Shown here: piece by piece, positions 27,511 through 58,455 of the stretch
How positions within the stretch are numbered: the stretch's first letter is position 1
Layout of the letters: each line of letters starts with the position of its first letter
Assembly (NCBI GenBank): GCA_044892525.1
Contig: CM097885.1
Coordinates: forward strand, 57,970,001-58,034,000
DNA length: 64,000 bases
Source of the DNA: Schmidtea polychroa
Lineage: Eukaryota
Direction: 5' to 3'
Program-made: the position numbers and the translations under genes
The notes under the pieces: model-generated
Told to the model about the DNA's origin: nothing
Database searches by the model: none
Seen by the model: the letters and a program-made list of their open reading frames with translations, nothing else

Positions 27511-27706
27511 TTATTTAAAACAATAAAATGATAATTTAAGCCTTTAGCTGCAAATAATGTATTTAATGAAAAAAATTTCGACTATAAGATAGTCCCTGTC
27601 AATCGATTGTCAGGAGATTGACAAGGACTATCTTATAGTCGAAAATTTTTTCATTAAATACATTTGCAGCAAAAGGCTTAAATTATCATTTTATTGTTTT
27701 ATATAA
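27511..27706. repeat. Near-perfect ~92-bp inverted repeat with an 11-nt loop (foldback/MITE-like hairpin)
   Basis: The arm at 27511-27604 is the reverse complement of 27616-27706 with a few substitutions and one 3-nt indel. Confidence 0.9.
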
Positions 27707-30867: not shown

Positions 30868-31173
30868 TGTTACTGCTGGGGTAGTGCTTGATTGACCTTA
30901 ACTCATTTACGCACCTGTCTAGGAGATGAGTGTCCATTCATTTACGCTAAGTGTGCTTACGTCAATCCGGAGCAAGACCCCGCACAACTTGTACTCCAAC
31001 ATAGCACCTGTGAATTGCTCCACGTTGGAAATGTGCTATGCCGGCGAGACACCAGTAAGCAGGTGAGCCCCTACCTTAGGACTACTCCTTACTGAGGCCT
31101 CGACTTCCTTTTTCTGACTGCCGATGGAAGGGTTTACGTCTGATCACTCCACCATTTCCTTCCCTACCTGACA
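30868..31173 (+). repeat. GC-rich TG...CA bounded LTR-like block (D)
   Basis: Starts TGTTAC and ends CCCTACCTGACA. Shares GACTRCCGATRGAAGG with the 3' part of block C (42633). Confidence 0.35.
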
Positions 31174-31441
31174 CCGAGTTATATACAGATTGTCTAATGC
31201 TTTTCGAACTAAAGTTTGCGCTTGGGTTGTAGAAACTACTCTGAACCTTTATAATGGCTAATCAAACAAAAACTAACAATAAGAAATGACGAAAATTTCT
31301 TTATTCTACTATCATAGTACGCTATACAGTTAAAACTACAGGACTAATATAAATCAAGGGAAGACGGTTTACGAGAACATATAAGTCAGAATCGTTCAAT
31401 TTACTAAACATGATCGATGTAGTTGCATTGGATTGAGATCT

Positions 31442-32191
31442 TTACTTTTCCCATTCTGCGTCGGCTAACAGCTCCTCCAGCTCGAAGAATTCGGAGGCAT
31501 TCTCCTCCCAAGTTACACCAGCGGCGGAGATGATTCGCCCTGGGATCCCTACGGTTAAATCGATCGTTACAGGGGGATCGTTCGAAGTACTGGAGAGCTC
31601 GGCAGATAGTCCACTTTGTTTGGCGATTGCTCGTTCACGCTGACGCTTTTTACGCTCAGCTCTGGACAACTGTCGACGCTTGGGTTTTGGAACAATCAGG
31701 GTGTTTGATAGTACGACAGAGGAAGACGCGGTCGATGATAACCCTTTCTGGGCTCCAATGGGAGACACTATGGTTGACCTGGGAGAGAGATCGGCTTCCA
31801 CGCATTCCCGGCAGGGCTTCTTAGCCGAAGATGACGAATTGGAAGGAAGTTCATGATGGACGGGGAAAAGGTCGTCCGCTCCATTGATAGGTATACTCAC
31901 TATCTTTCTAGTGGCTGCCGCTTGTACGTAGACCTTGTGTAGAGCCTCGGACTGCTCTTTGATAAGACTGCGTTGGGCCCTACTCTCGCTTATTAAGGCG
32001 TCGCGACAGTGCTCGCTTCGGTACAATTTCTTTTGTACCTCCTTCATTTGTACTGGGCTGAACCATGTACCTTCCAGATGGTCGATCGCTTTCTCGTATC
32101 GACCGATCTGGGCTTGCAAATCCCTGATTATAGAATTCTTATCTGAGCATGAGAAGCAGGGTTTGAGAGACGACTTCGAGCTTGGTAACAT
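31442..32191 (-). CDS. Orphan coiled-coil/basic protein X1 (TWFSP family), ~249 aa
   Basis: Intact GC-rich ORF with ATG at 32191, 9 nt after the acceptor of a predicted 32-nt intron (32232-32201). AATAAA at 31305-31300. Homologous to ORF 42851-43321. Confidence 0.75.
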   Translation of the reverse strand: MLPSSKSSLKPCFSCSDKNSIIRDLQAQIGRYEKAIDHLEGTWFSPVQMKEVQKKLYRSEHCRDALISESRAQRSLIKEQSEALHKVYVQAAATRKIVSIPINGADDLFPVHHELPSNSSSSAKKPCRECVEADLSPRSTIVSPIGAQKGLSSTASSSVVLSNTLIVPKPKRRQLSRAERKKRQRERAIAKQSGLSAELSSTSNDPPVTIDLTVGIPGRIISAAGVTWEENASEFFELEELLADAEWEK

Positions 32192-33565
32192 TCTCAATGG
32201 CTATAATGAAAGAAACAATAAGGATAAAATACAAGATTCGCTATGTCTATTAAACCAGCCTAGTGGCCTAATCATCTATGAATTTTCCTACAAGCTATAC
32301 ATTAATTTTGATGTGGTCCTAATATATTAAGAGGAAGGGATTTATGCTAATGGGTGAAGAAAATCTCTGAGTTATTATTATTAAATTCGAATGTCATCTA
32401 CCGGTCGAGTTGTAAGCCGTGACCCCCTTTCCCTTGGTGTAATGGAGAAACAACAAAAACAAATTCGTAATTAATTAGATGCGGGGATGACCAACCTCCT
32501 TGTACACAAAATGGACAACGAAATTGAGCCGATAACTAATAATTCCTTCAAATAATATCTTTGGAAATAGACCAAACGCAGAAAACAAAATTTTATTGTT
32601 AACGCCTTCCGATTTCCCCCTTAACCAACGCATTATTCCCCCAGGACATAACTCAGAATTCCCACCTCAGCAAGCGGATGCGCAGGCAAAATTAATCTCC
32701 ACTCAATAGCTGCTGGGTCCCCGTTTAATACCAAATTGTTTGGAATATGCACCAATCACCTGGCCGTTATCTATTATTAATGTTCGGAATTATCATTCTG
32801 CAAGTTAAAATTTTAATCTACGATGAAATTAATTGTATGTCGGGAAACACCTGTAATAAGATTAATCTCATGAAAAATAGTTCGTCATGCCAGATAATGG
32901 AAGCATGAGACAGGCGGCCTGCTATCTATCCGAGCCAGCCTTGTTGTCTGTGCGTGTTTTAATTTCGGTTCTCAATACTTGTAGCTGACTGGGAAAATAC
33001 TGCATGTCGCATATGTGAGTAAGTACTAATGTGTTAGTGCGTGTGATTTATCTCGTATGTTTGCTCATTATCGGAATTATCGTTCGCAGATGATCGCAAT
33101 ACACCACTGGGTCGAATCAATTCGTGGAATCAATATGTCATCTAGGTTGCTCTCTCATCAAACGCTAATGTTGGATTTGTTCCCCGCGATGTGCAGTTAA
33201 TTGTGTTTTCTACTTGGATAACTTTATTTCGTGGACATTTCCTTCGACTTATTCGAAAAATCTGCAATTTGACAAGGTCAATCGGAGGTGTCCTTTACTG
33301 AAGGGAGTTTATCCTACTGTGAGTGTAATTTTCAGAACACTTCGAAATAATTTGGTTAAAAATAAAACAGTTTCGTAATACATTTTCTTATTAAAAAATT
33401 GTGTTCAATAAATTTCATCTATACTTCTCATGTGATTGTATAGCGTCGGCGAATGGTTTAGTACTCAGTTTCTACAGGTCAGACGGAAATTGACGTGCAT
33501 TTCAACAGAAAAGGGTTTGGTACTCAGAAGATGGAATGTCGATTGGTACACTTAGGCAATTCAGA

Positions 33566-33838
33566 CTAATCACGGATATTAGGTAAAGAATTCAAGATGT
33601 AACAGCTAAGGATGATGAGTTTCGAAAAATAAACGTTTGTAGCCACCTCAGTCATTGTTTTTAAGATCGTTCTCATTGTCAAATCCGAATGGTACTCTAT
33701 GTTATTGTCAGCTAATTCTTGCAACATTTTAATTCCCTCAGCGACGGACCCGTGAGGAAGCCCCCACTTTCCGGCCCACGTCAGCTGCGTGATTGAAGAA
33801 GCCTGTACCCACCGGCTGAGCTCCCGAAGGCTCCTCAC
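33566..33838 (-). CDS. GC-rich orphan ORF fragment, no clear ATG
   Basis: GC-rich codon-like stretch (YHGVRSLRELSRWVQA..LQELADNN) on the same strand as X1, about 1.4 kb upstream of it. Confidence 0.3.
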   Translation of the reverse strand: MRSLRELSRWVQASSITQLTWAGKWGLPHGSVAEGIKMLQELADNNIEYHSDLTMRTILKTMTEVATNVYFSKLIILSCYILNSLPNIRD

Positions 33839-35842
33839 ACCATGGTACAGGTCTCCTCAACTCCACGTTACTCGATCATAATTTTCATATAAATTCCATA
33901 AAAATCGAAATTATCATGCATAGTATCTATCATAAAAGGCTTTAAATTTCATTACTGAAAATTCTTGATTATTAAAATATGAGACCAAATGGAGAGAACA
34001 TTAAAATTTTATTAAAATTGTGATAATAAACATTATTACTATTAACTTCCATGAGAAACATTTATTCAAATTCATAATAAGAATACATCCTTACTTTATT
34101 CTATATCGATCTGTGATCTCGAAAGGCTGAGTCAAAAAAAAAATTCGGTTATTGTACTGAGTTGAAAATCCAATTGTCCCTGATAGTCGTTTATATTGTA
34201 CGTCAGTGATCGTCTGTAATGGTTGAGTGTTGATCTGTAATGGTGTTTGTTAAACAGTCAGTTTTTAAAATTATGAGCTTACATGTAATGGTGTTTGTTA
34301 AACAGTAACTATATTGAATTTGCCGTTTGCTTATATAGGAATTTTTTGTTTATGCGGACCAATCAAAATTGAGTACCGCTTTAACTTTTAAATTAATTTG
34401 TTTTTCTTATTTCTTTGGTTGTTTTTCCTTATTTTTCTTTATTTTAATATATTTTTTATTTGTTTCTTAAATTCCTCATTATTTGTTGCATTTTTCGTCA
34501 TTTTATTCCTTATCTTATTACCTTATTTTAATTTTTTTATTTTTTGTTTTAATCTTAATATTTTACGTTATTGTTTCTTTTGTCTCTTGATTTATTTATT
34601 TTAGCAATTTGTGGTCTTATTTTATTTGTTCGCGTCTTATCTGTCCTAAATTTGACGATCAAGCTTTCGACTCAGCCCAACATTACTAATTCTGAATCCA
34701 AACCTGAAATTGATGAAGAACCTTTCACCAACACCTCATTATCAACCAAATTAGAAGATAAAATAAGTCAAAAATTGTCTGAAATACAATCGAAGAATTG
34801 ATACAAAGGTATTCCAACTATATGAATCAAGTGATAAATTATCATCAAATTTATCAAAAATAGTTTGAAACAATAAAACCTACATCCACTTGTTTAAAAA
34901 AGAGGATTACGAATATAATTTGTTTTCTGAAGATACTCTTTGAAATACGATTCGTGAAAATAATATAATACGTTCTCATATATCTTGTAAATAAATTTTA
35001 AAAAATATTTTTTTATTCCATATTTTAAACAGTTATTAACTTTCAAACACTTCCTGGGAATTCAAACACCATAGCCCTAATCACATCACCTATAATGACA
35101 TTGAAGTGATAAATAATCTCAAAAACAAGTCCTCTATTAGATGTGGCATCGCATATTACAATATACTTTTTTTCATTTATTAACAAATTATTTTAAAAAA
35201 AAAACTTTTTCTATTTTATTAACTCTTCTGGCCAATTAAACAATCTAATCAAATAATATTTAAATAAAATCTTTAATAATTTTCTATTTGATCAACTATT
35301 TTCAAGTTCTCTTAATCGTAACATTCAATATTTAATATTCTACAATTATAGAAAAAAATTTTTAATGGTAGACATTGAAATTGTTTTCAACTTTGTATAA
35401 TAATATCAGTTTTATATATTTGGATAATTTTCTTTTAATTATCAAAATGCACATTTATGTATTTCTTAGGTATCCATTTTATCAAACTTTGACAAGAACA
35501 ACAGAAAATATCATAAATGTAAAATGAAATTTTTTTGCAAACTATAAAAATTTTTCCAAAATATATGAACAAGATCTGAAGTAATTAAATTTCTTAATTA
35601 AAAACTTTAAATAATAAATAAAATTGATTTTTTAAAATAATTTTTAACTCGAATATAATCTAAATTTAAAAAAATATTACTAAGAAAAACTAAACTAAGA
35701 AAACAATAAATTAAAAAATAATAAGTATTGTTTGTATAAACTGTTATTGATTTCGATAAAAAATTTAAATTATATTATATAATAATTTGAAGAAACCAAA
35801 GATTTTTTCCAAACATTTTATTGACATTCAATTAATTGAAAT

Positions 35843-39334: not shown

Positions 39335-40620
39335 TGTTGAGGTCTGTAAATTAAAATTAAAAATTTAAATAAAATTTAGGATAATAATTCAAATGGAAAG
39401 TAAGCGAGGAAAAAAGGCAAATAAAAGCGGGATCGTGCACAGAATCAATAGTAAAGGAAAGTGTGACGGAAACAGTAATAGAAAATGCAAAAAGCAATTA
39501 CGAAAGGCGAGAATCCGGAAATCCGAGAAAAATCAATAAATGGAAAAATCATCGAAATCGAATGGGAAAAACGGGACAGGTATAGATTAGCTAATGGTCA
39601 ACAAGATGATGGTTAGGGATTTATCAGAAAAGGGTTAGGAAGGGTCGAAAAATATTCAAACGTATGAAAACAGAAAACGTTAATTAATTAATTAATTGGC
39701 TAATGGAAAACCCGAGCTAATGGGAAACCCGAGCCAATGGAGAACCCGAGAGATAAAGGAAACCCGAGCTGGGTAAACAAGAAGAAAGGCAAACAAAAGG
39801 AAGATTTGGGCCCATTAGCTTGACACAATGATTAATGGGAAAAGAGTAAGGAGAAGATAGCGCGCGTAGGAAGACCGGTAGGGCCATTAATTATCTGGAT
39901 TCGTTGGACCATTATGGGTGACAGCCGAAGCAAACACGTAGGAGAAAATGTCAAACGAAAGATTGGCTCGGCAATAACCATTTGTCATCCTGATTTCGAG
40001 GAGTATATAAGCAAAGGGAAAATCAGAGAAAATCGGCATTCTGCCTCAGCTAGGGTTCGAAGAATTAGACTGTAGGAAAAGTTGGTAGACGAATTAGGAA
40101 AGTAGGGAAAAGAAGAAAAAGAATTAAGATTACGGAAAGGGGAAAAGGAATCAAACCAAACAGAAACCGAGGAAAACGTGAATCGAGAGAATCTAAAGGA
40201 CTAAAAGGTGAATATTATTTGTTTGCAAAGCATCAACGCCGAGCGGAGAATCGTATAAAACTTTGATTGGTAATTGTAGCGTGATAATAAATTGTGAACC
40301 TGTTGTTTCAATATACGTTGGGTCGTTCATTGTTTTGATTTAAAGAACACTAGGAGTCAGAGAGAACCGACTTGAAATAATCCAAAACCCAACAAACTTT
40401 ACTATCTGTAGTTTTTTATGATATTTAATCAAAGGAACGTGAGGATTCATGGAACCGAATCCTACCGGAACATTTATTATTAAAACACAATAGTGTTTTT
40501 CTGGGAGGAGGTATGGGCAAAATGAAGCGAGCAAACGAAAAAATGAATACGAATATAATAATTTTAAATCGATTGGGGAACATAGACCAACTAACTAATT
40601 AATTAATTGATAAGAATAAT
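39335..40620 (+). mobile_element. LTR-like sequence (family copy A; right end approximate)
   Basis: Starts TGTTGAGGTC, has four AATGG/AAACCCGAG units after AATTAATTAA and a TATA GTATATAAG. AGAACACTAGGAGTCAGAGAGAAC matches copy B. Confidence 0.55.
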
Positions 40621-41980: not shown

Positions 41981-42705
41981 TGTTAGGGTTCAACAAGAGA
42001 GGTACAAATTGAGGTGAAAAATCAATAAAAACACCAAATTCACAATAATAATTTAAAGTACAAAAATATTAATTGAAAATTAAAAAAGTTTAAAATGAAT
42101 ATTTTTCGGGGAAAACTGATATGGGCGGATGCCAAACAATGAGACGAGTACAAATATGCTAAAATAAAGTTAATAGGAGGTCCCTAGAATGAAATAATTA
42201 CAAAAAACTAAAATTAATTAAAAATTAATTATCTAACAGAAAACCCGAGCTAATGGGAAACCCAATCTAATGGAGAACCCGATAAGATAAAGCCCGGAAA
42301 AAAAGGATACAAAGCAATTTGATTAAGGGATAATAAAATTACGAGATGGGTATAAAAGCCACCGGAAAGTAAACAGAATTGCCAGTAGGTTGAAGAAAGA
42401 AAAGAGATTGTTTAGTGAAAGGAAGCAAAGGAGAGTTTAACTTTGTGATAACTGGTGGGTTACTGGTGGTTGAATGATTGAGTGCTGTTACCAGCGTAAC
42501 CCAAAATACAACATTGTTTTTCCGCTTGGTACCCGTTGAGTGATCAACGTTGGTACTGTACCAAGGGTTGAGTACTCGCAAAAAGTGAGCGCATCAAAGC
42601 ACTATAGTTGTCGAGTACTCCGTGGGTTCACGGACTACCGATAGAAGGTGTGTGTCCGATTTCTCAGGTCCCTTTATCAAAATTGTTTTCCCAACCTTAT
42701 GCACA
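41981..42705 (+). mobile_element. LTR-like sequence (family copy C)
   Basis: Starts TGTTAGGGTTC, carries the same AAACCCGAGCTAATGGGAAACCC repeats and a TATA GTATAAAAG. Candidate end GCACA at 42705. Confidence 0.55.
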
Positions 42706-42850
42706 AACTCTCATTTCCCAGGCAATCATAAACTGTACTAGTCATTATTTTATCACTACAAAACGTGCAGTATTTTAACAAGGAACATATTATTTGAAGA
42801 CTACCACAATACATAAAAATACTACAAAACACCTAAAACCGAATATAAGT

Positions 42851-43357
42851 TCAAACAGGCTTATTGGTAGGACTGGCCAATTCCGTCGCAGCTGCTAGTG
42901 ACGAATTTGCTTGTCGCTCGTATTCGGCCAGTCTAGCTTTCTTCAATTTTTCCCGAATATTTCGGCCTAACCGCTTTCTTTTGGGTTTCTCTTTCGCGGC
43001 CGGGGGGTATATTGCTGCTAGTTCCACGGTCAACGGCCGGATTTGGCTTATGGCGGCTCCGTGAACTACTTGTTCATTGCGTTCGGTTTTTAACGCGCGG
43101 AGCTGGAGTTTCAGTGCCCGGATCTCCATCTGATCCTGCGCAGCTTGAGTCTGCAGTTGAAGGACCTGCGCCACCTTCTTTTTCATATCCTCGGGACTAA
43201 ACCAGGTGCTTTCTAGTTCCCGGCACCGTCCCTTGAGCTTGTCTACTCGTATGCGGAGCTCCTCGGACTGTTTTTGAGCTTCTGCCCTATCTCTTCGCAG
43301 ATTTTCCAATAGTTTGAACACTAGATAAATTCAACGATTATATTCTTGCAGCATACT
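42851..43357 (-). CDS. Orphan coiled-coil/basic protein X2 (TWFSP family), 156 aa
   Basis: Intact GC-rich ORF whose start codon would be formed as A|TG across a predicted 36-nt GTATGC...TAG intron (43356-43321). Aligns without gaps to X1. Confidence 0.75.
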
Positions 43358-43530
43358 ATTCATTCAATTATAAAATAAAATCAATATTATAAATAAACAT
43401 AGTTTCGGATGTTAAGCACGCAATACACAAGATGATTTATTAAAAGGACTGAAATAATTATCACTAAAATCAAAGTTTAATAAAGTCACAACTGAATGAT
43501 AATTTGCAAAAACAAAATTTTGACGATGAG

Positions 43531-43896
43531 TCAGTTCAGTCGCTTGCGAGGCCTTCCCCTCTTCCGCGGGGTTGCCTCGGCCTCTTCTAGGTCCTCCACG
43601 GTTTTTCCCTCTTTTTCTGCTTGGATTTGTAGCTCGATCTTCTTGAGTCGCATCTGAGCTGCTTCTACCTCGATGGCCGCTCGGTCGCGGGCCTCTTGCA
43701 AAAAATCGTTTGTGGGCTCTGTTTTTACCCACGCCGGAGCGTCCGGCTCCGGCCCACTCCTGATTACTGGGCCAAAGTTGTCGAGGTCCAAACCCCGATT
43801 CCAATCATGGATACGGTGCCATATGTACCGTGTACGGAGTCTGGTAAGCATCTGTCGGTCGGCTTCTTCGTGGCTATCGCTGTCAGAGTAGGACAT
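43531..43896 (-). CDS. Small AT-hook protein, 121 aa
   Basis: C-terminal TPRKRGRPRKR AT-hook after a coiled-coil-like stretch. ATG lies 2 nt after the acceptor of a predicted 42-nt intron (43940-43899). AATAAA at 43441-43436. Confidence 0.75.
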   Translation of the reverse strand: MSYSDSDSHEEADRQMLTRLRTRYIWHRIHDWNRGLDLDNFGPVIRSGPEPDAPAWVKTEPTNDFLQEARDRAAIEVEAAQMRLKKIELQIQAEKEGKTVEDLEEAEATPRKRGRPRKRLN

Positions 43897-44658
43897 TTCT
43901 ACAAAATAATAATCAAGCCCCTCTATGCTGATTGAGATACGACGTCAACCACAAGATTTTGTTGACCCTTTTTCCCTTTTAAAAAAATATTTTATTTTAA
44001 GACTAACATCTATAAGCTTAGGAGCAGTGGAATAAGATTTCCTACTTTATCAAAACAAACACAAAAAAAAATTTCGTCAAAATTCGTTTGTTTAAATCAA
44101 TCATTTCCATTCAAAATTTTGTTTACCACTGAGTGGTAATTTTAATTACTATTTATAAATTTTAATTTATATGTTAATAAAATGTGAATTTTTTTTTGGT
44201 CGTCATTTTTAGGCCACTAAATTCGGGCACGCTGGGGCGACAGGTACTAGCAACGAACTAAGCTCTTCGTCTGCTTACCTTTCCTTCGGTTGTGCTCGTT
44301 ATGAGTGGTTTGCTCTACATGCAAGTAATTTATTTGATTTTTTTTTACTTCCTTATTTTTTAGGCGATAACATTAGGAACCTCGATCGAGTAAGGGGAAT
44401 ATATTAGCTTGGAGTAGTCTTCCCATAGTTCTTCCCAGGGAATGACATTTCATGCCCAATATTTGATTTGGACCCGCAATTTGTCCCTCGCAGAAAATTG
44501 GAAATTTTTCGGGAATATTTGTATTCTGTATGTAGGTAAATCTCTGCGAATTATGGCTTATTTATTCAACTGCATGGTTCGCCGGAGTCATCCTCACCAT
44601 CTCCTGGAAACTCTTGATTGTCATAGCCCCGTCTTGAATTTTTCCTTAAGGTTTCTCT

Positions 44659-44680
44659 GGGGGGGGGTGTTGCTAAATAT
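44659..44680 (+). promoter_or_regulatory. Polypurine tract (G9) followed by TGTTGC, a probable 3' LTR start at 44668
   Basis: Same G-run+TG geometry as the unambiguous PPT/LTR junction at 13999/14000. Confidence 0.55.
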
Positions 44681-44809
44681 AGATTTTCAGTTAGGAACGT
44701 TTTTATTGGGCAAAAGAATTGACTCCAAATCTAGATATGGGGAAAAAATCAATAATTGATTTTTTGCTTTCCTAGTAAGTAATACTAATTATGATCATAA
44801 CCGTAAAAA

Positions 44810-44985
44810 TGGTGATAACGAGGATAACAAATGATCGTAGTGGTAATAATAATAATAGTAATAGTCATAATAACAATAATGATAATAATAATAATGAGAA
44901 CAATAAGGATAGCAATAAGAACAATAATAGCAATAATAATAGTAATAATGATAATGGCAACAATAATAATAATAGTGATAATATA
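44810..44985 (+). repeat. Degenerate (AAT)n microsatellite
   Basis: Runs of aat/aac/gat triplets. Confidence 0.9.
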
Positions 44986-45229
44986 ACTTTATATTTTACC
45001 ATTCGTATTTTGGCTTTCACAATTTAGGGATTCATATTTTATGAGTTCGAAGGTTACATTTTGCACTTTACAGGTTTTCGTCTACGATTTTCAATTTTTT
45101 TATCTTACAGTTTATAAATTCATACTTTAGAAGTTCTCATCATACACTTTATAATTTATAAATTGTTTATTTAACATTTTACCATTTTATATTTTTTACT
45201 TCCTAATTTTCTATTTTCAGATTTATAGT

Positions 45230-45640
45230 TTCATGGTCTACCATTTAGAAATTTGGATTCTTGATTTATGATTATATGGTTTAAATTTTTTGTTCAATAT
45301 TTTACGACGTTATGTTTTCGACTTAATGGTTATGATTTATACAATTATAGTCTACTATTTAGAAATTTAGATTTTTACTTTATGATTATATAGTTTTTGC
45401 TGACAATTTATATTCAACATTTTTCGATCTTACATTTCAGACTTCATCGTTATGATTTGCCCTTTTATGATCTACAGTTTAGATTTTTGATCCATAGTTG
45501 TATAGTTTATAACTTATAATACTATATTCGGTATTTTAGACTTTATGATTATACTTTACACTTTTAAAGTCTACAATTTAGAAATTTAGGTTTTTAATTT
45601 ATAGTTGGTAGTTTTATATTCAGTAATTTACGGTTTTAGG
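45230..45640 (+). repeat. Degenerate ~110-115 bp tandem repeat
   Basis: TCTACnATTTAGAAATTT(A/G)G recurs at about 45237, 45352, (45470) and 45570. Confidence 0.6.
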
Positions 45641-46009
45641 TCTATAATTTATCAATATAATTATCTCCAAGCTATTATAGTTATTTATAAAAGTTATAAT
45701 CAATTATTTATACCTTTAGGAATATGTTACAGTGAGAATTTAGATTCGGGATTCTTTTAAATTTATAACTTTTTCCTTTACGTTGGATTCATTAAGTCGG
45801 TGATTTATTCACAGGTCTATCCAAATTTAAGCTCTACTTAGACATAGGCCGAAGAATTTTACCATTTCTATTATTCCAATTACCATGGGCTCCTATTACC
45901 AAACCTAATTCGGCATATGTCCAAGTGTACCAAAATATTATTATTGATCAACCAACTACATTAATGTGCTTGCAGAATTGTGTAAGTTTAGGTATGAGCT
46001 CTACTCAAT

Positions 46010-46402
46010 TTAGGACCTTAGTGTGGAGTCGTTGTTTATGATTTTGAATGTGGATTTTTCATGTGTATTAAACGAAAGTCGGGAAGAATATTGCTTCCAT
46101 GGCCCCACTGTGACCACTTCTACAAACCTTAGTGTTGTGTGCTGAGTCAACCATTTACGGTTGACCTTGAATAAATACAAAGAGTCAGGCGGAGGGTTTC
46201 CTCGACCTAACTCCATGGCAGGACCATGAAGTAGTTCGACCTCCGGCTGACCCGAACAAAAAGAAATCATATAATAAATATCACTATAATAATGATAATG
46301 CGTGTCTGCATGTCCTGTTAATAACGATTTTAATAAATTGGATGCAGGACTGAACAACGACGCAGGAATACCAGTACGCCGTTGATCACTCATACATCGC
46401 AA
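46010..46402 (-). CDS. Orphan ORF, partly GC-rich, possibly spliced
   Basis: 130-codon open frame with coding-like segments either side of an AT-rich, intron-like stretch. Same strand as X2 and the AT-hook ORF. Confidence 0.35.
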   Translation of the reverse strand: MRCMSDQRRTGIPASLFSPASNLLKSLLTGHADTHYHYYSDIYYMISFCSGQPEVELLHGPAMELGRGNPPPDSLYLFKVNRKWLTQHTTLRFVEVVTVGPWKQYSSRLSFNTHEKSTFKIINNDSTLRS

Positions 46403-47703
46403 AAATTTTTAAGCAAAAATAAATTTAAAATACCATCTATATAATTAAACAATTAATATACAAATAAAGATCAATGCTTACTATCGATTTTGGAAATTTC
46501 GTCACAAAAATTTGGCATAAAAAGTGATTGATTGTGACTGAAACGTGTCAGTATATATACCTATTTAGTACACGTGTATGTATTGATGCATTAAAACAAA
46601 CTCGAATTCTTTTTATTCCAGAATTTTCTATTTTACGATTTTGCTATTTTTAATGGCAATTTTTGTGCCATAATTTTTGTTTTTATTTTTATATTTTTAT
46701 TTTTTAATTATTTTTCATTAATTTTACGTCCATGATGGATTTGGAACGGTTCCAGAACATTCTATTTTACTTTTAATTTAATTCTTATTTTAACTGATGT
46801 TTTTATGAATTCTTTTTGAGATTTTTTTTTTTTTTTTTTTTTTTTTATTTTTAATACTAATTTATTGATTTTCCTTAACTTTTGTTGTTCTAGATAACTT
46901 TTGTGATGGTCATCGCCATTTTTATAGAATGTTCTGGGTTTTTCTGGAATGTTTTACTGTTTTTATCGTCTTTTAAGTTATTCGAGTCTGTTTTTTGTAA
47001 CTCTGTGTTTATTTGGTTATTTTTGAGTTAGATTTTTGCATCACTTCTTGCTTTTGTATAATTTTGTTTAATTTCTTTGTTTATGTTTTTGTTGCTTTCT
47101 CCTTTAGTTAATATTGTTTATTTGATGTAATTTTAATATTTAGCTAAACGTCTTGCTTTTGCATGTTGTGTACCTGCACCTTTCAGTCACAATTCAAGTT
47201 TGGGTCTAGAAGTCAGTTCTAGCCCAACATAACTAATCTTTTCGAATCCAGCATACCAAAAATGGACATCTCCCGTTGAACAATTAACCCCTGCACAAGG
47301 TTCAATTTCGAATTGAAAAGTGTGCAGAGCAAAAAAGTGGTTTAAAGTGTGATTATTTCATTAAAGAGTGTAATCGAAAAAGTGTAATTGTTATAATCTT
47401 GAATAAATATTATTGTGTTGGATTGTTCAATTTGATTAGCAAAAGGACACCAAGGAGTCAGATAGTGACACTGACTTGTACAAAATACCCAACAATACAA
47501 AAATGAAGGACACAATGACAGCCAGTCAACCAAATGTAAATATAAATAACTAAAATAAAATGTAAACCTTATGTAGGAGTTATGAAATCCGTTTAAATTG
47601 GTACATTATTTCGATTGCTTTCTCTGTAACTCATTATTCTACACTGTGATAGATATTTTAGATGAATATTCAAGAAATAAATTTCGTTAAAAATGTTTGT
47701 TAA

Positions 47704-48028: not shown

Positions 48029-51000
48029 ATGAACTTTTCTTTATTATTCAAATTAGCAAAAATCTCTCGATCATTTTCGACATGTCAAACAGTAAGTAAT
48101 TTATAATTTTGTTTTTGAATGATAATTTTTTAGTTAAATGCAAAAGTTGCAGTTTTAGGAGCAAGTGGTGGAATTGGGCAGCCAATGTCATTACTTCTCA
48201 AAAAGTCATCAGCAGTTGATAGATTAGCTTTGTATGACGTGGCACATGTTAAGGGTGTTGCTGCAGATTTAAGTCACATTGAAACTCCTGCTGTAGTTAC
48301 TGGATATCTGGGTCCAGGAGAATTGCTTGAATGTTTGAAAAATTCTGATGTTGTAGTTATACCAGCAGGAGTTCCTAGAAAACCTGGAATGACACGAGAT
48401 GATTTATTTAATACGAATGCATCAATTGTTGCGGATCTTGTACATGGGTGTGCTCAAGCATGTCCAAAAGCCATGATCTGTATTATCACAAATCCAGTTA
48501 ATAGTACAGTTCCAATTGCTGCGGAAATTTTAAAGAAAGCAGGTTGTTATGACGCTAAAAGGCTTTTTGGGGTAACAACTTTGGATATTGTTAGGTCAAA
48601 TACGTTTATCGCCGAAGCAAAGGTATTTTAAATCATATTTTTATTAAAATTTTTGAAAACAATTATTCTAAAATTAACCAATTTTGTTTATTAGTTTGAA
48701 GCTTGATAATGAATTTTATAAAATTGACCTTTGAAAATATTTATTTAATATTTTGCAGTCTAATGTCTACTTTGTATTATAGAGTTTTAAAGTGTCAAGT
48801 TTAAATAAAATAATTTAACTTTATTCTAAATTTTTAATATTACGACAAATATTTTGTATTATCTCAACGATAAATTGGCTAGATAATATTAATAATCACA
48901 CTTTTAATCGTGGTTGACTTGGGGATCCTTAACATTTGGGAACTTGCATTTATCTAACATAAGTGAAAGTGCAGTGCATTAAATTGCTTTATACTAATGT
49001 TATGTGTATGTATAGTAGTCCCAAAGTTCATTTATAATATATGATGTAATAATTTGTTATTTATAGCTTTTATATCATATAAATCTTGTGGATATTTCGT
49101 TTAATATATTATTCGATTCCTTTAAAAATAAATTAATCAATAATCTGGATTGACCAATGATTGCAGAAAATATTTAGAATGAAATCGCTGATTTTATTGG
49201 ACATTAGTAATAATTATGTCATATAATTCATTTCATAGTAATGGCTTTAGTTTTATTGATTATGAGCAAAGAGTGAATATATTTTGTTATTTTTACAACT
49301 TACAAGTATTTGAGGATTCTTAAATAGGATATTTTCAAACTTTTATCATTTGAAAGAATTTGACAAAAATAACCTATCTAAAGTAAGACTAATAAACAGT
49401 TGAAAAGATAAAGTGATATTCAATGCTTTTCTAATTGCAGACAATTTTTAGCTTTTTGGATATTGTCGGTAATGTATAAGAAATTCGGACCCAATAATTT
49501 TGACCAGGCTCCAGAATCTAACCACTTCGTCATCAGGTCTCATCAAATATCTTAATTTTTGTACCACTTATATCATCCACATTTCATGATACTATTAGAG
49601 TTTGTAAAGGCATTAAATGGCGATAAGTAATTAAATAGAATCTAATGGGTTTTGGGTTTTGGATTATCTTTATTGCCCGGCTTCACACGGGAAATTTGAA
49701 AATCCCACGGTTGACACATCAGCCAGAACGACCTTACACCATGGTAGGAACTTTATTCTGATAGGTCAATGAATAATTGGATTTATCTTTTTAAATGTAT
49801 AGATATTAGAAAAAATGTCTTTAGTTTGAGGATTTGTCATCAAAGATACGTTCTATCTGTCGCGGTTTGGACTGTGCGAACAAGAAAGGTGACAAACACA
49901 TCCACCTACCCACAAACAAGGGTTTTTTTAGTTTAGAAGTCATATTTAGAGTTTTTTAGTTTAGATAAATTAATAAAACTTCTTTTATGGTTATTGTTAC
50001 GGTAATTAGTAAATGTCTATATAAATATTATTATTTGATGGGATAAAGTTTGTACAAATAATAAAATGGAATTTATTTAAATTATTAATCTAGGTAAAGT
50101 GTGGTTATTCTGCAAATTATTGTCTATGGTTTTTTGCTAATTGTAAATGTATTACATTTAAACTACATTTTGAACTAATCACATTGAGATCATTTTTCAA
50201 TAATATCACGCAATTCGGTCACATTTAGATTTATATTTTTGAGTTAAGAATAAATATATAGTGATAATCCGTGTATGATTCAGTATTTATCGAATAAATT
50301 GACATTTGTAATTTATTTTTTGGAAAGAAATTGAGAGCATAGGCGTCCGAATGGGGCCGGGGCAAGTGGGGGCAATCCCCACCCGAATTTCTCAAACCAT
50401 TCTATTTTTCGATTAATTTAAACACATTTTAATAGATGTGCTCAAACAATGTTGGAAAAACCCAAGACAAAAAAAATTAATAAAAAATTTAATTTAAAGA
50501 GGCTTCGTGTTTTTTTAATGTTATTAATTATATCTGGAAATCAATAATTTTAAATCATCTTCTTTGTATAAAAACTTTCAATATTAACTGACGTTCTGGT
50601 TTTAAAAAGTGTTATTTATTTTGTAAATTAATGAAAAAAAAGTCCTATTTTGTATAATGCCCCAATTATTTATTATACACGTGTATTTTATTTCAACTCT
50701 CTTCCTCCTAGAAAAATTGTCTACGTGGTAAAAAATGTTTTTGCCCCCCTTGGAAAAATTCCTGCAGACGCCCATGATAGAGAGCACTTGTTTTCCGTGA
50801 GTGCACCATCGATATATACACACATTCCATATAACTAAATATTATTGTTCCATAAATTCGAAAGCTATATACGAATAAAATTTCATTCTAAATCTTTTCA
50901 GCACTTTCTGCTCAATATAGATTGTTGGTTAAATTATTTGTAAATCACCTAGAACCAGAATTTGAATAATATATTAAACAATTTATTCATATATCAGCCA

Positions 51001-54000
51001 ATGCATTTTATGTTTTGACAAATGTGATTTAAGATACTTCATTTAAAAATCTGTGATTTTCATTGAATTTTAAATAGTGCATTTCGCAATATCTGTACCG
51101 TTTTAAATTGAGAGTTGTTTTCCAAAAAAAAACATTTATCTATAACAGTAATGGCCAACCCAAATCAATCGAAGGGCAAAATTTTCGGAAAAATACTATC
51201 ACGGGCCACAATAAATTCATATAAATAAATATAACTCGTTTTTACGATTCAAGTAAACTTAGAATCAATTTTTTAAATTAAACATGCTTAATTCGAATAT
51301 GAATTCTAAAAAAGACAATTATTGATTTGATGTTTAAAATTGTGTCCGGGCCACATCAAAACGCTTCGCGGGCCACCGGTTGGCCATGGCTGATCTATAT
51401 ATTACTATTTTAAAATTTTTGTGCTTTACGGTAATTTAAAGGTAATTGACTTTTATAAATAATTGAAATAGAAATGTGATTTGATTTAATAAGATTTTAA
51501 ACCTACACTTTAATTAATCAATTGTTGGTGAATAACGGCCTACGCAAATTTTGTGCTCATCATTTGTTTGTCCCGATATCGATATTTTAATAAAAGAATA
51601 ATTACCATAATGACCATCGGTTCCATATGACGGATATATCCATCATCAACTCTAGTGAATGTTAAACAAAATATTATTAAGTAATATTAGAATAAATACG
51701 CGTATTACGGATTAGATAGAGCATAGGTGTCCAAAGCGTCGACCACAGTTTAATTTCGCTGTTTAGGGTTTAACCCGGTTTTAGACTAGTAAATATCGGG
51801 ACCAGGGCCGGCCTTAGGCACAGGCAGTTGCCTATGGCGCCTTAATCTGGGGGTGCCATTTTAACAAAAAAAATTTGTTTCGTGTTTTTCATTTTTTTAA
51901 CCTTTTTTTCAATGTAAGCTGTTGCATTTTCATTAATTTCGAATTAAAAACTATTGCTTATAACTTATAATATTTCTAACAGGCCACTTTTACCTCAACC
52001 AAGATTTTAGATTAACTTTTCATCTTTCTAATAGATAAAATGATTATCATTCAGGACATAAAAATATTCTCATAATAAGTTATATCGACTAAATTTTTAA
52101 AATGTTTCAAATTTAATTACCGTATAAGTCGAGTAAATTTTAAGAGGTTTTTAAGTTCTAAATTGGAAACCCGCGTGTAAGTCGAAGTAAGAAAAATAAA
52201 AATATGGTTTAATGATTTCATTAAAAATTAATTTTTACGTTTTTTGACCCGCGTAGAAGTCGAAGTGGCTATTTTCACTTGAAAATTTGACGTACGGGTA
52301 ATTATGATTTATATTGATGACTTGTACGCGTTTTTATTAAAATGATTTTGCAACAAAATGCAGACAGTATTGAAATGTCATCAGTTGAAAAAACAAAACA
52401 GAAGGTATTGAAATAAGTTAATTATCCTTTAAAATCTATAGTACTTTTAAATTTCAAACAGTTTTCTTAGTCATATTTAATTGCTAAATATTAAAAAATA
52501 ATGTCAAGCCCTATGAAAGGCCAAAAGTTATCAGGTGCTCAATCTCATTAGAAGAAACAACAAACAGAACTTAGTATGAAAAACAAACATGGTGGCTTTC
52601 CAGGTATTTAGAGAAAACCAAAACTACTCCAGCTGTTAATGTTATTGTTCAATCTGGCTAGACATCAACTAGCAATTCAGAAACCGCAATGCTCAATGTT
52701 AATAGTGAAGATGTTGCTCAAAATGAAACGGAAGTAGGCTTTAATGTCACGGAAGATGAACTAATAAGTCCATCTGCCCTTAATTCCGATTTTATATTCT
52801 GCTCGACAGGCGAAATATTTCTCTATTATTCTTGATTGCACTCCCGATCAGAGTCATAAAAAGCAGATGTCTATCACAATACGCTTTGTAGATATTAATG
52901 AATATGTTTCTATACGCGAGCATTTCATCGGTTTTATTGTAGTAGAAGATTCACCATGCCTTTCTGTAAGATTTGCAAAAATTAAATTTTTTGGCAATTA
53001 AAGTGTTTTACGATTTCCCAACTAATTTATATTAACAATTGCTGACTGTACTTATTTAAAAAATTATAATAATAAATAACTTAGTTGGGGTATAACATGG
53101 GTAATGATGTTCTTGGCCCCTATGCGCTAGTTCATCATTCAATTGTAACGTGTCAGGCTTGAGGTAGTATGGGGGTCAGTCTGGTCAGATGACACCAAGA
53201 TGTATGCTTTGCCTATGGCGCCATTTTGGCTAGGACCGGCCCTGTTCAGGTTCTTGCAGTTGATATACGTATACAAGTGTCTTGATTTAACTAAATACAC
53301 CAATCCCTCGCTTAACGAAATTTCGATTTACGTTCAATTTTTTGGGAACGAATTAATTTATATAAATATTTATATAGAGTGCGGCGTTCCTTTTTTACAT
53401 ATAAGATTTACATCGATTACGATGAGACCGTCTAGCAGCTCACTACATACTGCCTTTTTCACTTTCAAATTCACTTGAAAAGGGCAGTGCCGAAAATTCG
53501 TGAGTATCAAAAAATATCGATATATTACTGATTTATGGTCTTCAAGCTCTGTTTTTAATAAATTCAATGGAAAAAATAATCAGTGGTGAAATTGGAAAAA
53601 AAATTTCTTATTATATATATGTATATATATCGGTAATAGGATTGATAAATGATATTTCAGCTATTGGACGTGACAAAAATGTCAGTCCCTGTTATTGGTG
53701 GACATTCTGGAGTCACTATAATTCCGGTAATATCTCAAGCTATTCCTTCTGTTTCTTTCCCTGAGGTATTATGTCTAAAGACTTGAGATTTAATTTGTTG
53801 TTGTCGTTTTTTTTTACCTAGAGTGATATCAGCAAGTTAACAATAAGAATTCAAAATGCCGGAACTGAAGTTGTTGAAGCTAAAGCTGGGGCTGTTAGAT
53901 TACATTTTTCTCTTCGATTTCCAAATTTGATTTTCTTTATAGGGTTCAGCTACTTTGAGCATGGCCTACGCTGGGGTTCGATTCGTCAAGAGGCTCCTGG

Positions 54001-54439: not shown

Positions 54440-55480
54440 AAGGATGATGCTTGAAGTGATTATCTTTTCAGATTCAGCCAGTGCCTTATTTAAAATGTCG
54501 TCTATACTATGCTTACTCTTTCGCCGAAGCCTAATCCTAAGTATATATATATTATCTTTGTCTATTATTGGTATTTTTTCGTCATAAATTGATAGTGGTA
54601 TATCACAATGATTTTTTATGGATTTGGAAGTAACCACATTTGCTAGGTCGAAATTTTCATTCGGTCTTATTAGTTACCTTAATTATATGTTCTAATATCA
54701 ATCTTAACGTCTCTTGACTCAGATATTAGAACAATGTCATCAGCATACGCCAATATGCTGACATTGTATTGTTTATATTTTAGTGGAAATTTATGTCCCT
54801 AAGAATAAAGTCAATTGCTAGGCAAAATAGTGTCATGGACATTGGGCATCCCTGCTTAACACCGTTATAAATTTCTATTTCATTTGTAAGTTGCCCTTCA
54901 CAATCGTAATATGTTTTGCATTCGTTGAATAGGTCCTTAAACATATTAAGCGTATTATTATTAATGCCTAGTTCTATTAGTGTTTGCCATATAAGTTGAT
55001 GTGGTACACTTCCAAATGCATCAGCGAGGTCTAACGAGACTATGTTAATGTCACCATTAGTGCGAATTGCTCTTTCTTTAATAAGTGTGAATACTTTATT
55101 ATACTCAGAACACCCATCTGGTATACCTATAGCCTTTTGGTTTATACTAATGAGGCCCTCTATTCTTACCCATTCTAAGAAACGTATGTTAATTATAGCT
55201 GAAAAAATCGTATATGCGGTGTAAAGTATTGCGAGGGGATGCCAGGATGAAACCTCAAAACTGTCCAGTGCTATGAATGCTATATAGGAGCAATTCTATT
55301 AAGCACTGGGAAACGGCGGTGATTAAGCAATCAGTGTTGATAGACATCTTACAATTTTTCAGAAAAAGAAGCTTCTTAAGTTGATGATATTTAAACAAAT
55401 TAAAAGATGAGGAACTTATCGATGTTTTATTTAAATTAATAAATTTAAAAATATATCCTTTTAACACCGGGACTTCTGGA
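54440..55480 (-). mobile_element. R2/NeSL-type non-LTR retrotransposon RT fragment
   Basis: GIPDGCSEY, SLDLADAFGSVPH, GVKQGCPMSMTLF, ILAYADDIV and FRPSKC. Confidence 0.9.
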
Positions 55481-56199: not shown

Positions 56200-58455
56200 T
56201 TTTTTGCTATTACACAATTCTTATTACAGTAATAATATTACTAATTAATAACAACTTCATTTTCAATCGGTAAGTTTTAACATTATTTTAATTTCAAACT
56301 TAAATTAATTTCTAAATGAATTTAGGATTAAATATGGATCAGTGGTTGAAAGCTGGTACAATAAACGTACACTAGAAAGTCAAGTCACATCAAAAACACA
56401 AGTACAAATACAAAACACAGAAAATGCGCCGTCTTCAGTTCTGCAGATAGCTAAAAAGAGGAAATACTGCGATGATTATATGAAATATGGATTTTCATAT
56501 ACAAGAGGTGACGACAGCCCTAAATCCAAATGTGTAGTATGTGGTGAAGTGCTATCAAATGGCAGTATGAAACCCTCCTTGCTTTTACGTCATCTCCAAA
56601 CAAAATATGCCAATTATAAAAACAAGGAATATGATTTTTTTAAACGCTTAGCATCTCAAAATTTGAAGATGTCAGATTTGACATCGTACATCCTGCCAGC
56701 TAATAAAAATAACGAAAATGCGACTGAAGTTAGTTACCGCATTAGTTACCGTATTGCTACGTGTGGTAAAAATCATACAATTGCAGAGAATCTAATTCAA
56801 CCATGCATAGAAGACTGTTCGGTGTATGCTTGGAGAAGAACATGTGCAAAAAATAAAAAATATTCCTCTTTCAAACAATACAATATCTCGAAGAATTTTG
56901 GATATGTCTGATAATGTTGAGGCAACAGTGAAATAGTAAGGTTTTCGCTATACAAGTTGATGAAAGCACGGATGTTGCTAATTTTGCTATTTTGCTTGTT
57001 ATTGCGAGGTATTTAAAAGACAATGAAGCCGAAGAAAACCTTTTACTTTGTCATGCTCTGTCAGAACACACAACAGGTGAGGATATTTTCAAAGCTATCG
57101 ATTAGTATTTCCAAAAAAGGCGTAAATTGGTCTAATTGCTGCGGGCTCTGTACCGATGGTGGCAAGTCTATGTCAGGTATTTATTCCGGTCTGCGCGGTC
57201 GACTCTAGAAGATAGCTGCCAAAATAAGTTGGAGGCACTGTTGCATCCACAGGCAAAGTTTGGCATCTAAGCATTTTCCAGTGCAATTGAAGCTTGTTCT
57301 TGACGAAGCTACGAAAGTGGTTAATTTTATAAAGTCAAGTTCAACCAACTCGAGATTTTTTAAAGCATTTTGTGAAAATTTTGATAGTGTTCATTCTACT
57401 TTGCTATATCATACAGAAGTAAGGTGGCTATCTCGAGGCAAGGTCCTTACCCGATTGTTCGAGCTTAGACATGAAGTACAGGCTTTCTTCGAAGAACATC
57501 CTTTTCAACTTGCTTCCAAGTTTCACGACTGTAATTGGCTTCAGACGCTTGCTTATTTATCAGACATTTTCCTTCGTACAAACAATCTAAATTTTATTTA
57601 CTTACAGATAGATCTAAATTTAGCACTTCAAAATAACTCCATATCGATATTCAATGTCTCGGATGAAATTGAATCAATGATTAAAAAAATTAATTTTTGG
57701 AGAACATGTATTGAAAACGGTCAACCGGAGGTATTTGAAACTTTGCACGATTTCCTATCAAAGAATAAACTTTGCCTCTCCAGAGAATTGAGAAACAACC
57801 TATTTGAACACTTAAAAGAGCTAAAATCAAATTTCGAGAAGTATTTTCATAAACCTGATGTAGGAAACAATTGGATTTCAAATCCTTTCAATGACGAATA
57901 CTTTCGAATAGCTAAATTATCAATCACTGAAAAAAATAACTTAATTGAACTTTCAAATGACTCTACTTTGAAAGTCGAATTTAAAGGAAAATGTCTTATT
58001 AAATTTTGGTCACATATCAGCACCGAATATGAATTGCTTTCAACCAAAGCGCTGAACGTTTTGTTACCATTTACAGGTACAGTACAGCTCCAGATTTAAG
58101 ATTATACCTTGCATCAATCGAACCTGACATCACAAGACTATGCATCTCAAAGCAAGCTCAAGGATCTCACTAAATGTAATAAGTTAAGTTAAAAGTAATG
58201 AAAAATTTTAATGTAAAAAATATAATAGTTTATATTCATGTCGTTTTTTATTAAAATATATGTAACTATAATAAATGTTTTACTTTTCATCAATACACAT
58301 TCTGAGCATACTCCTTGACACATTATTGCTATTTATTTAGTGTTAACAAATGCGCGAGTATTAATATTTTAATTTTTTTTCTAATATAAGGGGTACAATT
58401 TAGGATAATGAACTTCCAAGGGGTACTCAAACCAAAATAAGGTTGAGAAGCGCTG
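56200..58455 (+). mobile_element. hAT (Buster/ZBED8/SCAND3-like) transposon, frameshifted
   Basis: KYGF..KCVVCGEVLSNGSMKPSLLLRHL, CTDGGKSM and YHTEVRWLSRGKVLTRLFELR. Right TIR AGGTTGAGAAGCGCTG. Confidence 0.93.

What the first reader, a model, noticed from the sequence alone, without database searches (positions are those of the whole stretch)
41981..44700. Candidate antisense, intron-bearing accessory-gene cassette in an LTR retroelement
Seen on plus: LTR-like block C (41981-42705), then two minus-strand genes (X2 and the AT-hook ORF), then a G9 PPT with TG start at 44668. Each of the three orphan ORFs has a GT-AG intron of 32-42 nt at its 5' end, and two have a downstream AATAAA. Established: antisense ORFs occur in plant Tat/Retand Gypsy elements, HTLV-1 HBZ is a spliced antisense basic/coiled-coil protein, and AT-hook motifs were reported in giant planarian Burro Gypsy elements. 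Inference: antisense orientation would let spliceosomal introns survive reverse transcription, giving an element its own small spliced genes for chromatin-binding proteins. No gag-pol is linked here, and block C does not match the sequence after the PPT, so element boundaries are unproven.
Basis: partly seen in the sequence, partly recalled or inferred. Interest (0 to 1): 0.78.

Follow-up and report, generated by a model that had tools for sequence, protein, structure and literature searches.

The report
Spliced genes inside giant retrotransposon LTRs
The two small genes lie inside the 4.8-kb terminal repeat of a known giant planarian retrotransposon, on the element's own strand and under protein-level selection, and they are likely spliced from a short leader near the repeat's promoter, with splicing predicted to create the start codon of one of them, so each repeat would be a small self-contained gene unit.

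Summary
Window 42453-47229 is a solo LTR (target duplication TAAC) of a ~35-kb Burro/GYPSM1-type Gypsy element, nested in an unrelated 733-bp solo LTR (block C). Both ORFs lie inside the LTR on the same strand as gag-pol, so they are sense; the G9 tract is no PPT. They are real genes: median dN/dS 0.24 and 0.23 across divergent copies. The 36-nt micro-intron is possible in only 4 of 44 homologues, whereas the acceptor YAG|TG is kept in 44 of 44. A conserved TATA box and splice donor sit ~0.7 kb from the LTR start, and the leader exon ends in A in 22 of 23 sampled copies. Splicing would therefore build the ORF-B AUG (A|UG) across a ~3.2-kb intron wholly inside the LTR. The third ORF (31442-32191) sits likewise in another Burro-type family's LTR. 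Splicing is predicted, not shown in RNA; protein function is inferred. This scan noted Burro, and other ORF-bearing LTRs, on other DNA; no listed note describes this LTR gene unit. Verdict: new variant of a known kind.

The parts
42453..47229 (-). Solo LTR (4777 bp, TG...CA) of a Burro-1/GYPSM1-type giant Gypsy element
   Evidence: 99%+ identical to both ends of ~35-kb elements; ends and 4-bp target duplication TAAC at 42449-42452 and 47230-47233
46552..46559 (-). Conserved TATA box of the LTR, followed by an initiator-like motif; predicted start site about 46530-46540
   Evidence: aligned across Burro-1 and family D copies; 1194 genome matches to the variant 18-mer, 0 for the reversed control. 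Function inferred
46482..46540 (-). Predicted short leader exon, ending in A at 46482
   Evidence: last exon base A in 22 of 23 sampled copies that have the donor
46477..46481 (-). Conserved 5' splice donor GTAAG
   Evidence: GTRAG 67-79 nt after the TATA in 23 of 26 promoters versus 42 of 572 control windows; similarity between subfamilies drops just behind it
43899..46481 (-). Predicted 2583-nt intron to the ORF-A acceptor
   Evidence: YAG + 1-3 nt + ATG in 29 of 30 ORF-A copies recognised; not shown in RNA
43321..46481 (-). Predicted 3161-nt intron to the ORF-B acceptor; the junction would form the AUG (A|UG)
   Evidence: YAG|TG in 44 of 44 ORF-B homologues; not shown in RNA
43531..43896 (-). 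ORF-A, 121 aa: helix with IHDW motif, coiled coil, C-terminal AT-hook-like motif (43543-43566)
   Evidence: median dN/dS 0.24 in 29 family D comparisons; GRP core in 23 of 30 copies; Pfam AT_hook in 5 of 11 members at best E 0.0075; model
43436..43441 (-). AATAAA between ORF-A and ORF-B
   Evidence: present in 5 of 29 spacers, all five of the window's subgroup, none of 24 family D spacers
42851..43320 (-).
   Evidence: median dN/dS 0.23 in 29 family D comparisons; model pLDDT 79; family alignment
44659..44667 (+). G9 tract inside the predicted intron; not a polypurine tract of this element
   Evidence: inside the LTR, on the antisense strand, absent from one young subfamily
41981..42452 (+). 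Block C, left part of an unrelated 733-bp solo LTR interrupted by the Burro LTR
   Evidence: continues at 47234-47494; target duplication ATAC at both outer ends
47234..47494 (+). Block C, right part
   Evidence: ends ...CAACA followed by ATAC
30874..34682 (-). Solo LTR (3809 bp) of a second Burro-type family, with CCAAT/TATA near 34331-34365 and donor at 34282
   Evidence: paired copies ~25.7 kb apart; flanks a same-strand fusion-protein/PR/RT/IN polyprotein; target duplication; promoter alignment
31442..32191 (-). Third orphan ORF (X1, 249 aa), distant homologue of ORF-B with its own ATG 9 nt behind an acceptor at 32201
   Evidence: median dN/dS 0.18 in 21 comparisons, 0.08-0.15 in the 7 most divergent; shared TWFSP motif

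Best explanation
The stretch is a solo LTR of the giant planarian Gypsy element Burro-1 whose two selected sense-strand genes are likely expressed by splicing from one short leader exon behind the LTR's TATA box, a splice predicted to create the ORF-B start codon. Shown: LTR identity and ends, sense orientation, purifying selection, conserved TATA, donor and acceptors. Inferred: transcription starts ~0.7 kb into the LTR; the ~55-nt leader splices to ORF-A, to ORF-B (exon-end A + TG gives AUG) and probably also to the internal accessory ORFs, most of which begin 0-3 nt behind a YAG; most families then end the RNA at an AATAAA ~300 nt before the LTR end, which would make R up to ~3.8 kb long. 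The introns would survive retrotransposition because the primer-binding site lies just behind the LTR: RNAs ending in the LTR stop short of it, and splices from the leader to internal acceptors cut it out, so mainly unspliced RNA is copied. Most likely role (inferred from anatomy only): nuclear regulators of the element's own expression, ORF-A binding AT-rich DNA through its AT-hook, ORF-B acting as a coiled-coil oligomer with a basic nucleic-acid-binding helix.
For: Paired 99%+ copies 30 kb apart and target duplications. Gag knuckles, MATH, fusion glycoprotein, PR, RT, RNase H, IN, ankyrin, BIR/RING on the ORFs' strand. dN/dS medians 0.24, 0.23, 0.18, with shifted-frame controls mostly near or above 1. 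YAG|TG in 44 of 44 ORF-B homologues; 11 of 44 have no Met before the conserved TWF motif and so need an upstream start. Donor in 23 of 26 promoters against 42 of 572 control windows; exon ends in A in 22 of 23 while the two bases before it vary. In the X1 family, whose ORF has its own ATG, the donor exon ends in G in 5 of 7 copies. No copy with a changed sequence before either acceptor or behind the donor against 138 exact unspliced copies. Precedent for a splice-made AUG in Drosophila gypsy env.
Against: No spliced RNA was seen, so start site, junctions and 3' end are all predictions. 33 of 44 ORF-B homologues have a Met before the TWF motif and could do without the split AUG. One sampled copy has G instead of A at the donor without a matching change at its acceptor (L130/L159); 3 of 26 promoters lack the donor. 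An ATG inside the leader is in frame and open in the window family but only in 8 of 23 sampled copies, so in some copies it would be an out-of-frame upstream AUG. The window family has no AATAAA behind ORF-B (5 of 37 copies lack it) and has six AATAAA inside the predicted introns and one between the ORFs, so its 3' end is uncertain. Copies are related, so the counts are not independent. No sequence or fold match supports a function.
Confidence: 0.75

Rival explanations
1. The ORFs are sense LTR genes but the acceptors are used without that donor: ORF-B starts at the GUG that the unspliced acceptor spells, or at a downstream Met, by leaky scanning or from unrecognised local promoters.
For: The acceptor's last G plus TG reads GTG in frame in all 44 copies; 33 of 44 have a Met before the TWF motif.
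Against: It does not explain the pyrimidine tract and YAG before both ORFs, the donor, or its invariant last-exon A; the leader would be over 2.5 kb with many AUGs.
Confidence: 0.1
2. The acceptors receive the host spliced leader by trans-splicing, resolving the element's tandem ORFs like a flatworm operon.
For: Trans-splicing exists in Schmidtea and flatworm operons have spacers under 300 nt, with acceptors often shared between cis- and trans-splicing (PMC12582326, passages); tandem ORFs each behind a YAG.
Against: A conserved cis donor exists in both LTR families. A leader ending in AUG (recalled for flatworms, not checked here) would be out of frame with ORF-B and would give GUG, not AUG, at the junction.
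Confidence: 0.07
3. Each ORF is a small gene with its own 32-42-nt intron.
For: In the window a 36-nt GT..AG intron joins an upstream ATG in frame to ORF-B; GT stands 42 nt before the ORF-A acceptor in 10 of 29 copies.
Against: The in-frame micro-intron is possible in only 4 of 44 ORF-B homologues and absent in an 81%-identical one; the X1 GT is missing in 4 of 9 aligned copies.
Confidence: 0.06
4. Antisense, intron-bearing cassette between an LTR (block C) and a PPT.
For: Only the plus-strand look of block C and of G9-TG.
Against: ORFs share the strand of gag-pol; block C is a separate interrupted LTR; G9 is inside the LTR and dispensable.
Confidence: 0.01

Closest known systems
[quoted passage not shown] 2018; as described in PMC6431247, section read)
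   Same: Over 30 kb with ~25 kb internal region; one huge polyprotein with CCHC knuckles, MATH, fusion glycoprotein between gag and PR, RT, RNase H, IN, ankyrin; BIR and RING accessory ORFs.
   Different: The section read names no ORF, intron, promoter or donor inside the LTR. Its figure, Grohme 2018 and the Repbase entry could not be seen and may draw these ORFs. No direct alignment to the published sequence was made.
Drosophila gypsy/springer errantivirus env, start codon formed by splicing (PMC2585583 and bioRxiv 2023.08.03.551782, passages)
   Same: Gypsy element; a subgenomic splice builds the AUG from two exons.
   Different: There the split is AU|G, the donor is outside the LTR near gag and the target is env in the internal region. 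Here the predicted split is A|UG and promoter, donor, intron, acceptor and ORF are all in the LTR.
LTR-overlapping retroviral genes: MMTV sag, lentiviral nef, foamy-virus tas/bel (recalled)
   Same: Sense-strand accessory gene in or reaching into the LTR, expressed from spliced RNA.
   Different: Those lie in U3, upstream of the promoter, and are read from the 3' LTR. These lie downstream of the predicted promoter (R or U5), so a solo LTR holds the whole unit.
Rev/Rex/Rec-type regulators and HTLV-1 HBZ (recalled)
   Same: Small spliced product with a basic helix and coiled coil, in an element that must keep some RNA unspliced.
   Different: No sequence or fold match found; HBZ is antisense and has basic region before zipper, ORF-B is sense with the reverse order; no response element or export activity tested.
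Antisense extra ORFs of plant Tat/Retand elements
   Same: Extra ORFs in large Gypsy elements.
   Different: Those are antisense and in the internal 3' region; these are sense and in the LTR.

Membership tests
Burro/GYPSM1 giant Gypsy elements | Total length above 30 kb with LTRs, internal region about 25 kb | tested here: met
   LTR copies 30.2 kb apart plus 4.8-kb LTR
Burro/GYPSM1 giant Gypsy elements | Single giant ORF: Gag knuckles, MATH, env-like fusion protein before PR-RT-RNase H-IN, ankyrin | tested here: met
   one open frame across a whole 10-kb stretch and on into both neighbours; Pfam hits in that order
Burro/GYPSM1 giant Gypsy elements | BIR, RING and further accessory ORFs | tested here: met
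   BIR+RING, TRAF+MATH, RING ORFs
Burro/GYPSM1 giant Gypsy elements | High nucleotide identity to the published Burro-1/GYPSM1 sequence (which numbered family it is) | not testable with these tools
   reference sequence not held; 'Burro-1' rests on architecture and abundance
LTR retrotransposon (Gypsy order) | Direct terminal repeats TG...CA with target duplication | tested here: met
   4-bp duplications at two full elements and at the window copy; also X1 family
LTR retrotransposon (Gypsy order) | tRNA primer-binding site behind the 5' LTR | tested here: inconclusive
   conserved TGG-starting site about 7-8 nt behind the LTR in three families; likeness to a tRNA-Pro site is recalled, not matched to a tRNA here
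LTR retrotransposon (Gypsy order) | Polypurine tract before the 3' LTR | tested here: not met
   three families have a conserved non-purine motif there instead; left unexplained
Antisense accessory cassette (Tat/Retand, HBZ type) | ORF on the strand opposite to gag-pol | tested here: not met
   same strand in three families
AT-hook proteins | R-G-R-P core with basic flanks | tested here: met
   motif in 23 of 30 copies; Pfam AT_hook in 5 of 11 members, best E 0.0075, window protein itself not hit
AT-hook proteins | Binding to AT-rich minor groove | not testable with these tools
   needs a binding assay
Rev/Rex-like export regulators | Sequence or fold similarity to a known member | tested here: not met
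   no Pfam, PDB sequence or Foldseek match
Rev/Rex-like export regulators | Binds an RNA response element and exports unspliced RNA | not testable with these tools
   only a basic helix is seen

The most novel reading that the evidence does not exclude
Burro LTRs are autonomous spliced operons: promoter, split-AUG leader, multi-kilobase intron, two regulator genes and poly(A) signal all lie in an R region of almost 4 kb, and ORF-B is a Rev/Rex-like switch, the first in a Gypsy element, that lets the element move from spliced accessory mRNAs to unspliced genomic RNA; over a thousand LTR copies, solo ones included, could supply these regulators in trans.
Probability: 0.2. Interest if true: 0.88.

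Novelty: new variant of a known kind. Interest (0 to 1): 0.62.

Why it matters
LTRs are treated as non-coding control regions and solo LTRs as dead remnants. Here LTRs of several giant planarian families carry protein genes under selection, with a predicted promoter, intron and splice-made start codon inside the repeat, so a solo LTR could still express them. The same leader would also explain how Burro reads its many accessory ORFs, which the review read here leaves open, and why sense-strand introns survive reverse transcription. Exact junctions are predicted, so existing planarian long-read or PIWI-knockdown RNA data can test it directly.

Tried and rejected
RNA: no RNA holder listed for the stretch. 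This is no evidence either way. Word-based protein searches found nothing for ORF-A or ORF-B. Pfam gave no family for the three ORFs at E 0.01; PDB sequence searches gave only weak coiled-coil hits; Foldseek gave 0 matches for the ORF-B model; the ORF-A model (pLDDT 66) was not searched; the Atlas could not read the protein. A strong-looking donor at 44278, 380 nt before the ORF-A acceptor, was considered; family D copies have no donor at a fixed place there. A coding role for the leader exon was rejected: its ATG is open and in phase in 8 of 23 copies. An A-B fusion splice was considered by eye only and not supported. Junction-type searches found no spliced DNA copies. Literature: Grohme 2018 was not held; searches for Burro + AT-hook and for a splice-created start codon in LTR retrotransposons by that wording returned 0 papers; GYPSM1 returned 1.

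Full report
What is there. A search of the window's own genome (781 Mb; organism not named, planarian by inference from the elements) with 42750-44100 returned 40 scored matches of 1257 candidates, all 99-100% identical and mostly in pairs about 30 kb apart. Similarity to these copies starts sharply at 42453 and ends at 47229. Two full elements carry 4-bp target duplications and the window copy is flanked by TAAC on both sides. So 42453-47229 is a 4777-bp solo LTR. An exact 24-mer at the ORF-B acceptor occurs 138 times; by my count of the first 100 places listed, 94 are in pairs or a triple 17-31 kb apart and 6 are single. LTR pairs of three elements are 99.98-100% identical over the 3.7-4.3 kb compared, so the family is young. 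Block C is another element: 41981-42452 continues at 47234-47494, giving a 733-bp solo LTR with its own duplication ATAC.

Which element, which strand. Between paired LTRs lies one very long frame plus accessory ORFs, all on the strand of ORF-A and ORF-B. Pfam finds CCHC knuckles, MATH, a Monjiviricetes-type fusion glycoprotein, protease, RT, RNase H, integrase and ankyrin, and in separate ORFs RING, TRAF+MATH and BIR+RING. This matches the description of Burro-1/GYPSM1 in PMC6431247 (section 7 read whole, figure not seen). A primer-binding-like site follows the LTR end on that strand. The ORFs are therefore sense and sit in the 3' third of the LTR. The G9 is on the antisense strand inside the LTR and is absent in 4 of 4 loci of a young subfamily. 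The third orphan ORF (X1) lies the same way in a 3.8-kb solo LTR at 30874-34682 of a second giant family with the same polyprotein type. A third group ('family D') has both ORF-A and ORF-B homologues at about 40% protein identity and the same layout.

The ORFs are genes. Pairwise Nei-Gojobori comparisons of natural copies with one reference copy gave median dN/dS 0.24 (ORF-A, 29 comparisons; outliers 0.98 in a near-identical copy and 0.82 in a badly aligned one), 0.23 (ORF-B, 29) and 0.18 (X1, 21; 0.08-0.15 for the 7 most divergent); the same alignments read in shifted frames were mostly near or above 1. These values come from family D and the X1 family, since window-type copies are too alike; comparisons share a reference and are not independent. 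ORF-B and X1 share a TWF(S/P)P hinge and a basic tail (BLASTP E 2e-4). A profile search of 1.84 billion representatives returned 19 hits at E 0.001 or better; one is a family D protein, and most others I read carry the hinge motif and an arginine-rich tail inside unnamed, apparently fused gene models (10 of 19 looked up, none names an organism). AlphaFold models are long helices: ORF-B pLDDT 79, ORF-A 66, both pTM 0.31. ORF-A ends in an AT-hook-like motif kept in 23 of 30 copies and has a KxEP motif that I recall as a SUMO site type.

The introns are not the short ones. In 44 of 44 ORF-B homologues (hits under 45% identity dropped, one duplicate locus dropped) the exon starts YAG|TG, but an in-frame ATG-GT micro-intron of 25-60 nt is possible in only 4. 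In 11 of 44 there is no Met before the hinge motif, so these need a start from upstream; 33 have one. ORF-A has YAG + 1-3 nt + ATG in 29 of 30 recognised copies, with GT 42 nt upstream in 10 of 29. The X1 GT is missing in 4 of 9 aligned copies while its acceptor is kept in all 9.

The missing donor is near the LTR start. Window-type and family D LTRs share a TATA box at 46559-46552, an initiator-like motif, and then a donor, behind which subfamilies diverge. A variant promoter 18-mer matches 1194 places (0 for the reversed control). In the first 30 loci (26 distinct promoters) 23 have GTRAG 67-79 nt behind the TATA, against 42 of 572 control windows, and the exon's last base is A in 22 of the 23 while the bases before it vary. 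That donors usually end in G is recalled, not measured here. Exon-end A plus the invariant TG gives AUG for ORF-B. Of 20 of those loci followed downstream, 14 showed an ORF-B homologue aligned from its start (13 distinct copies), all with the acceptor. One copy has G at the donor without a matching acceptor change, which counts against strict coupling. The X1 family offers a contrast: CCAAT and TATA boxes ~0.35 kb into the LTR, then a donor whose exon ends in G in 5 of 7 copies (T in the window, repeat unit missing in one), and an ORF with its own ATG. A splice-made AUG has precedent in Drosophila gypsy env (PMC2585583 and bioRxiv 2023.08.03.551782, passages).

How it likely works. Inferred: transcription starts about 0.7 kb into the LTR; the leader splices over 2.6 or 3.2 kb to ORF-A or ORF-B. 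AATAAA stands about 300 nt before the LTR end in most copies (32 of 37 with a located end have one behind ORF-B; the window has none there but has one between the ORFs, as do 5 of 29 spacers). The genes would thus lie in a very long R, or in U5. Most internal accessory ORFs also have an early Met 0-3 nt behind a YAG (Burro-1: RING, TRAF, BIR, coiled-coil and 269-aa ORFs, not the 341-aa ORF; background 11-13% of ATGs; up to three Mets were inspected per ORF), so one leader may serve the whole element, as in complex retroviruses. Because the donor lies upstream of the primer-binding site, RNAs that end in the LTR never reach it and splices to internal acceptors remove it; this would keep spliced RNAs out of replication without any antisense arrangement. 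In line with that, no DNA copy had a changed sequence before either acceptor or behind the donor (exact-match patterns, window family only). RNAs spliced to ORF-A/B that read through the poly(A) site would keep the primer site, a gap in this argument. Function is inferred from anatomy alone: nuclear regulators of the element's own expression; a Rev/Rex-like role for ORF-B is the bold reading (about 0.2).

Comparison and novelty. The element is known; BURRO1 is expressed in gut and rises on smedwi-2 knockdown (PMC8532177, passages). I found no text on LTR-internal genes, promoter or splice sites of Burro in the library (as listings; PMC11410931 and PMC12582326 as passages), but Grohme 2018, its supplements, the Repbase entry and the review's figure were not seen and may show the ORFs. 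Earlier notes of this scan mention Burro and BEL/Pao LTRs that carry host-gene pieces on other DNA, none this unit (unchecked notes). Verdict: observation partly confirmed, antisense model refuted, replaced by a sense, LTR-internal spliced gene unit; new variant of a known kind; interest 0.62, held down by the lack of RNA proof and of any functional match.

Noticed in passing
L032:360-400 (minus), L121:3330-3362, L079:7540-7577: Three Burro-type families have no purine tract before the 3' LTR; instead a conserved short hairpin and a C-rich motif that looks like an imperfect reverse complement of the primer-binding site. How the plus strand is primed is unexplained.
   Followed up: partly
L032, L079, L120, L121 spacers between accessory ORFs: TGTAAATA occurs 6, 5, 5 and 3 times on the sense strand, shortly behind accessory-ORF stops, and 0 times in three 10-kb polyprotein stretches. 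It resembles a Pumilio element or a forkhead site (recalled); spacer composition was not controlled.
   Followed up: partly
window 44340-45894: The middle of the predicted intron is swapped for unrelated sequence in a young subfamily (L073, L076) while promoter, donor and ORFs are kept, as expected of intron sequence; both versions hold AAT-rich simple repeats and ~115-bp degenerate repeats.
   Followed up: partly
window 34236-34331: The X1-family leader exon with its donor is a tandem 48-nt duplication; copies differ in which unit keeps the GT.
   Followed up: partly
window 48134-48631 (+): Lactate/malate dehydrogenase N-terminal domain (Pfam E 2.7e-47), about 640 bp beyond block C and pointing away from the Burro LTR promoter; host gene or retrocopy not determined.
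   Followed up: no
window 186-2606 and 10697-13874 (+), 54783-55295 (-): Two broken Gypsy-type pol regions (several frames) and a further RT fragment; not linked to the finding.
   Followed up: no
window 39670-40395 and 3970-4115: Further relatives of the block C LTR family, sharing a 17-bp repeat; boundaries not worked out.
   Followed up: no
window 27511-27706; 52979-53244 with 59843-60727; 7837-8106 with 51137-51405: A near-perfect ~195-bp palindrome, a pair of long inverted repeats 6.6-7.6 kb apart enclosing unmatched ORFs at 56309-58099, and a ~270-bp dispersed repeat; probably DNA transposons.
   Followed up: no
P0002-P0019: Unnamed database gene models fuse the ORF-B-like domain to unrelated host domains (furin-like protease, transporter, phosphatase, hAT transposase by eye): probably gene-prediction chimeras with intronic LTRs, but real read-through splicing is not excluded.
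   Followed up: no
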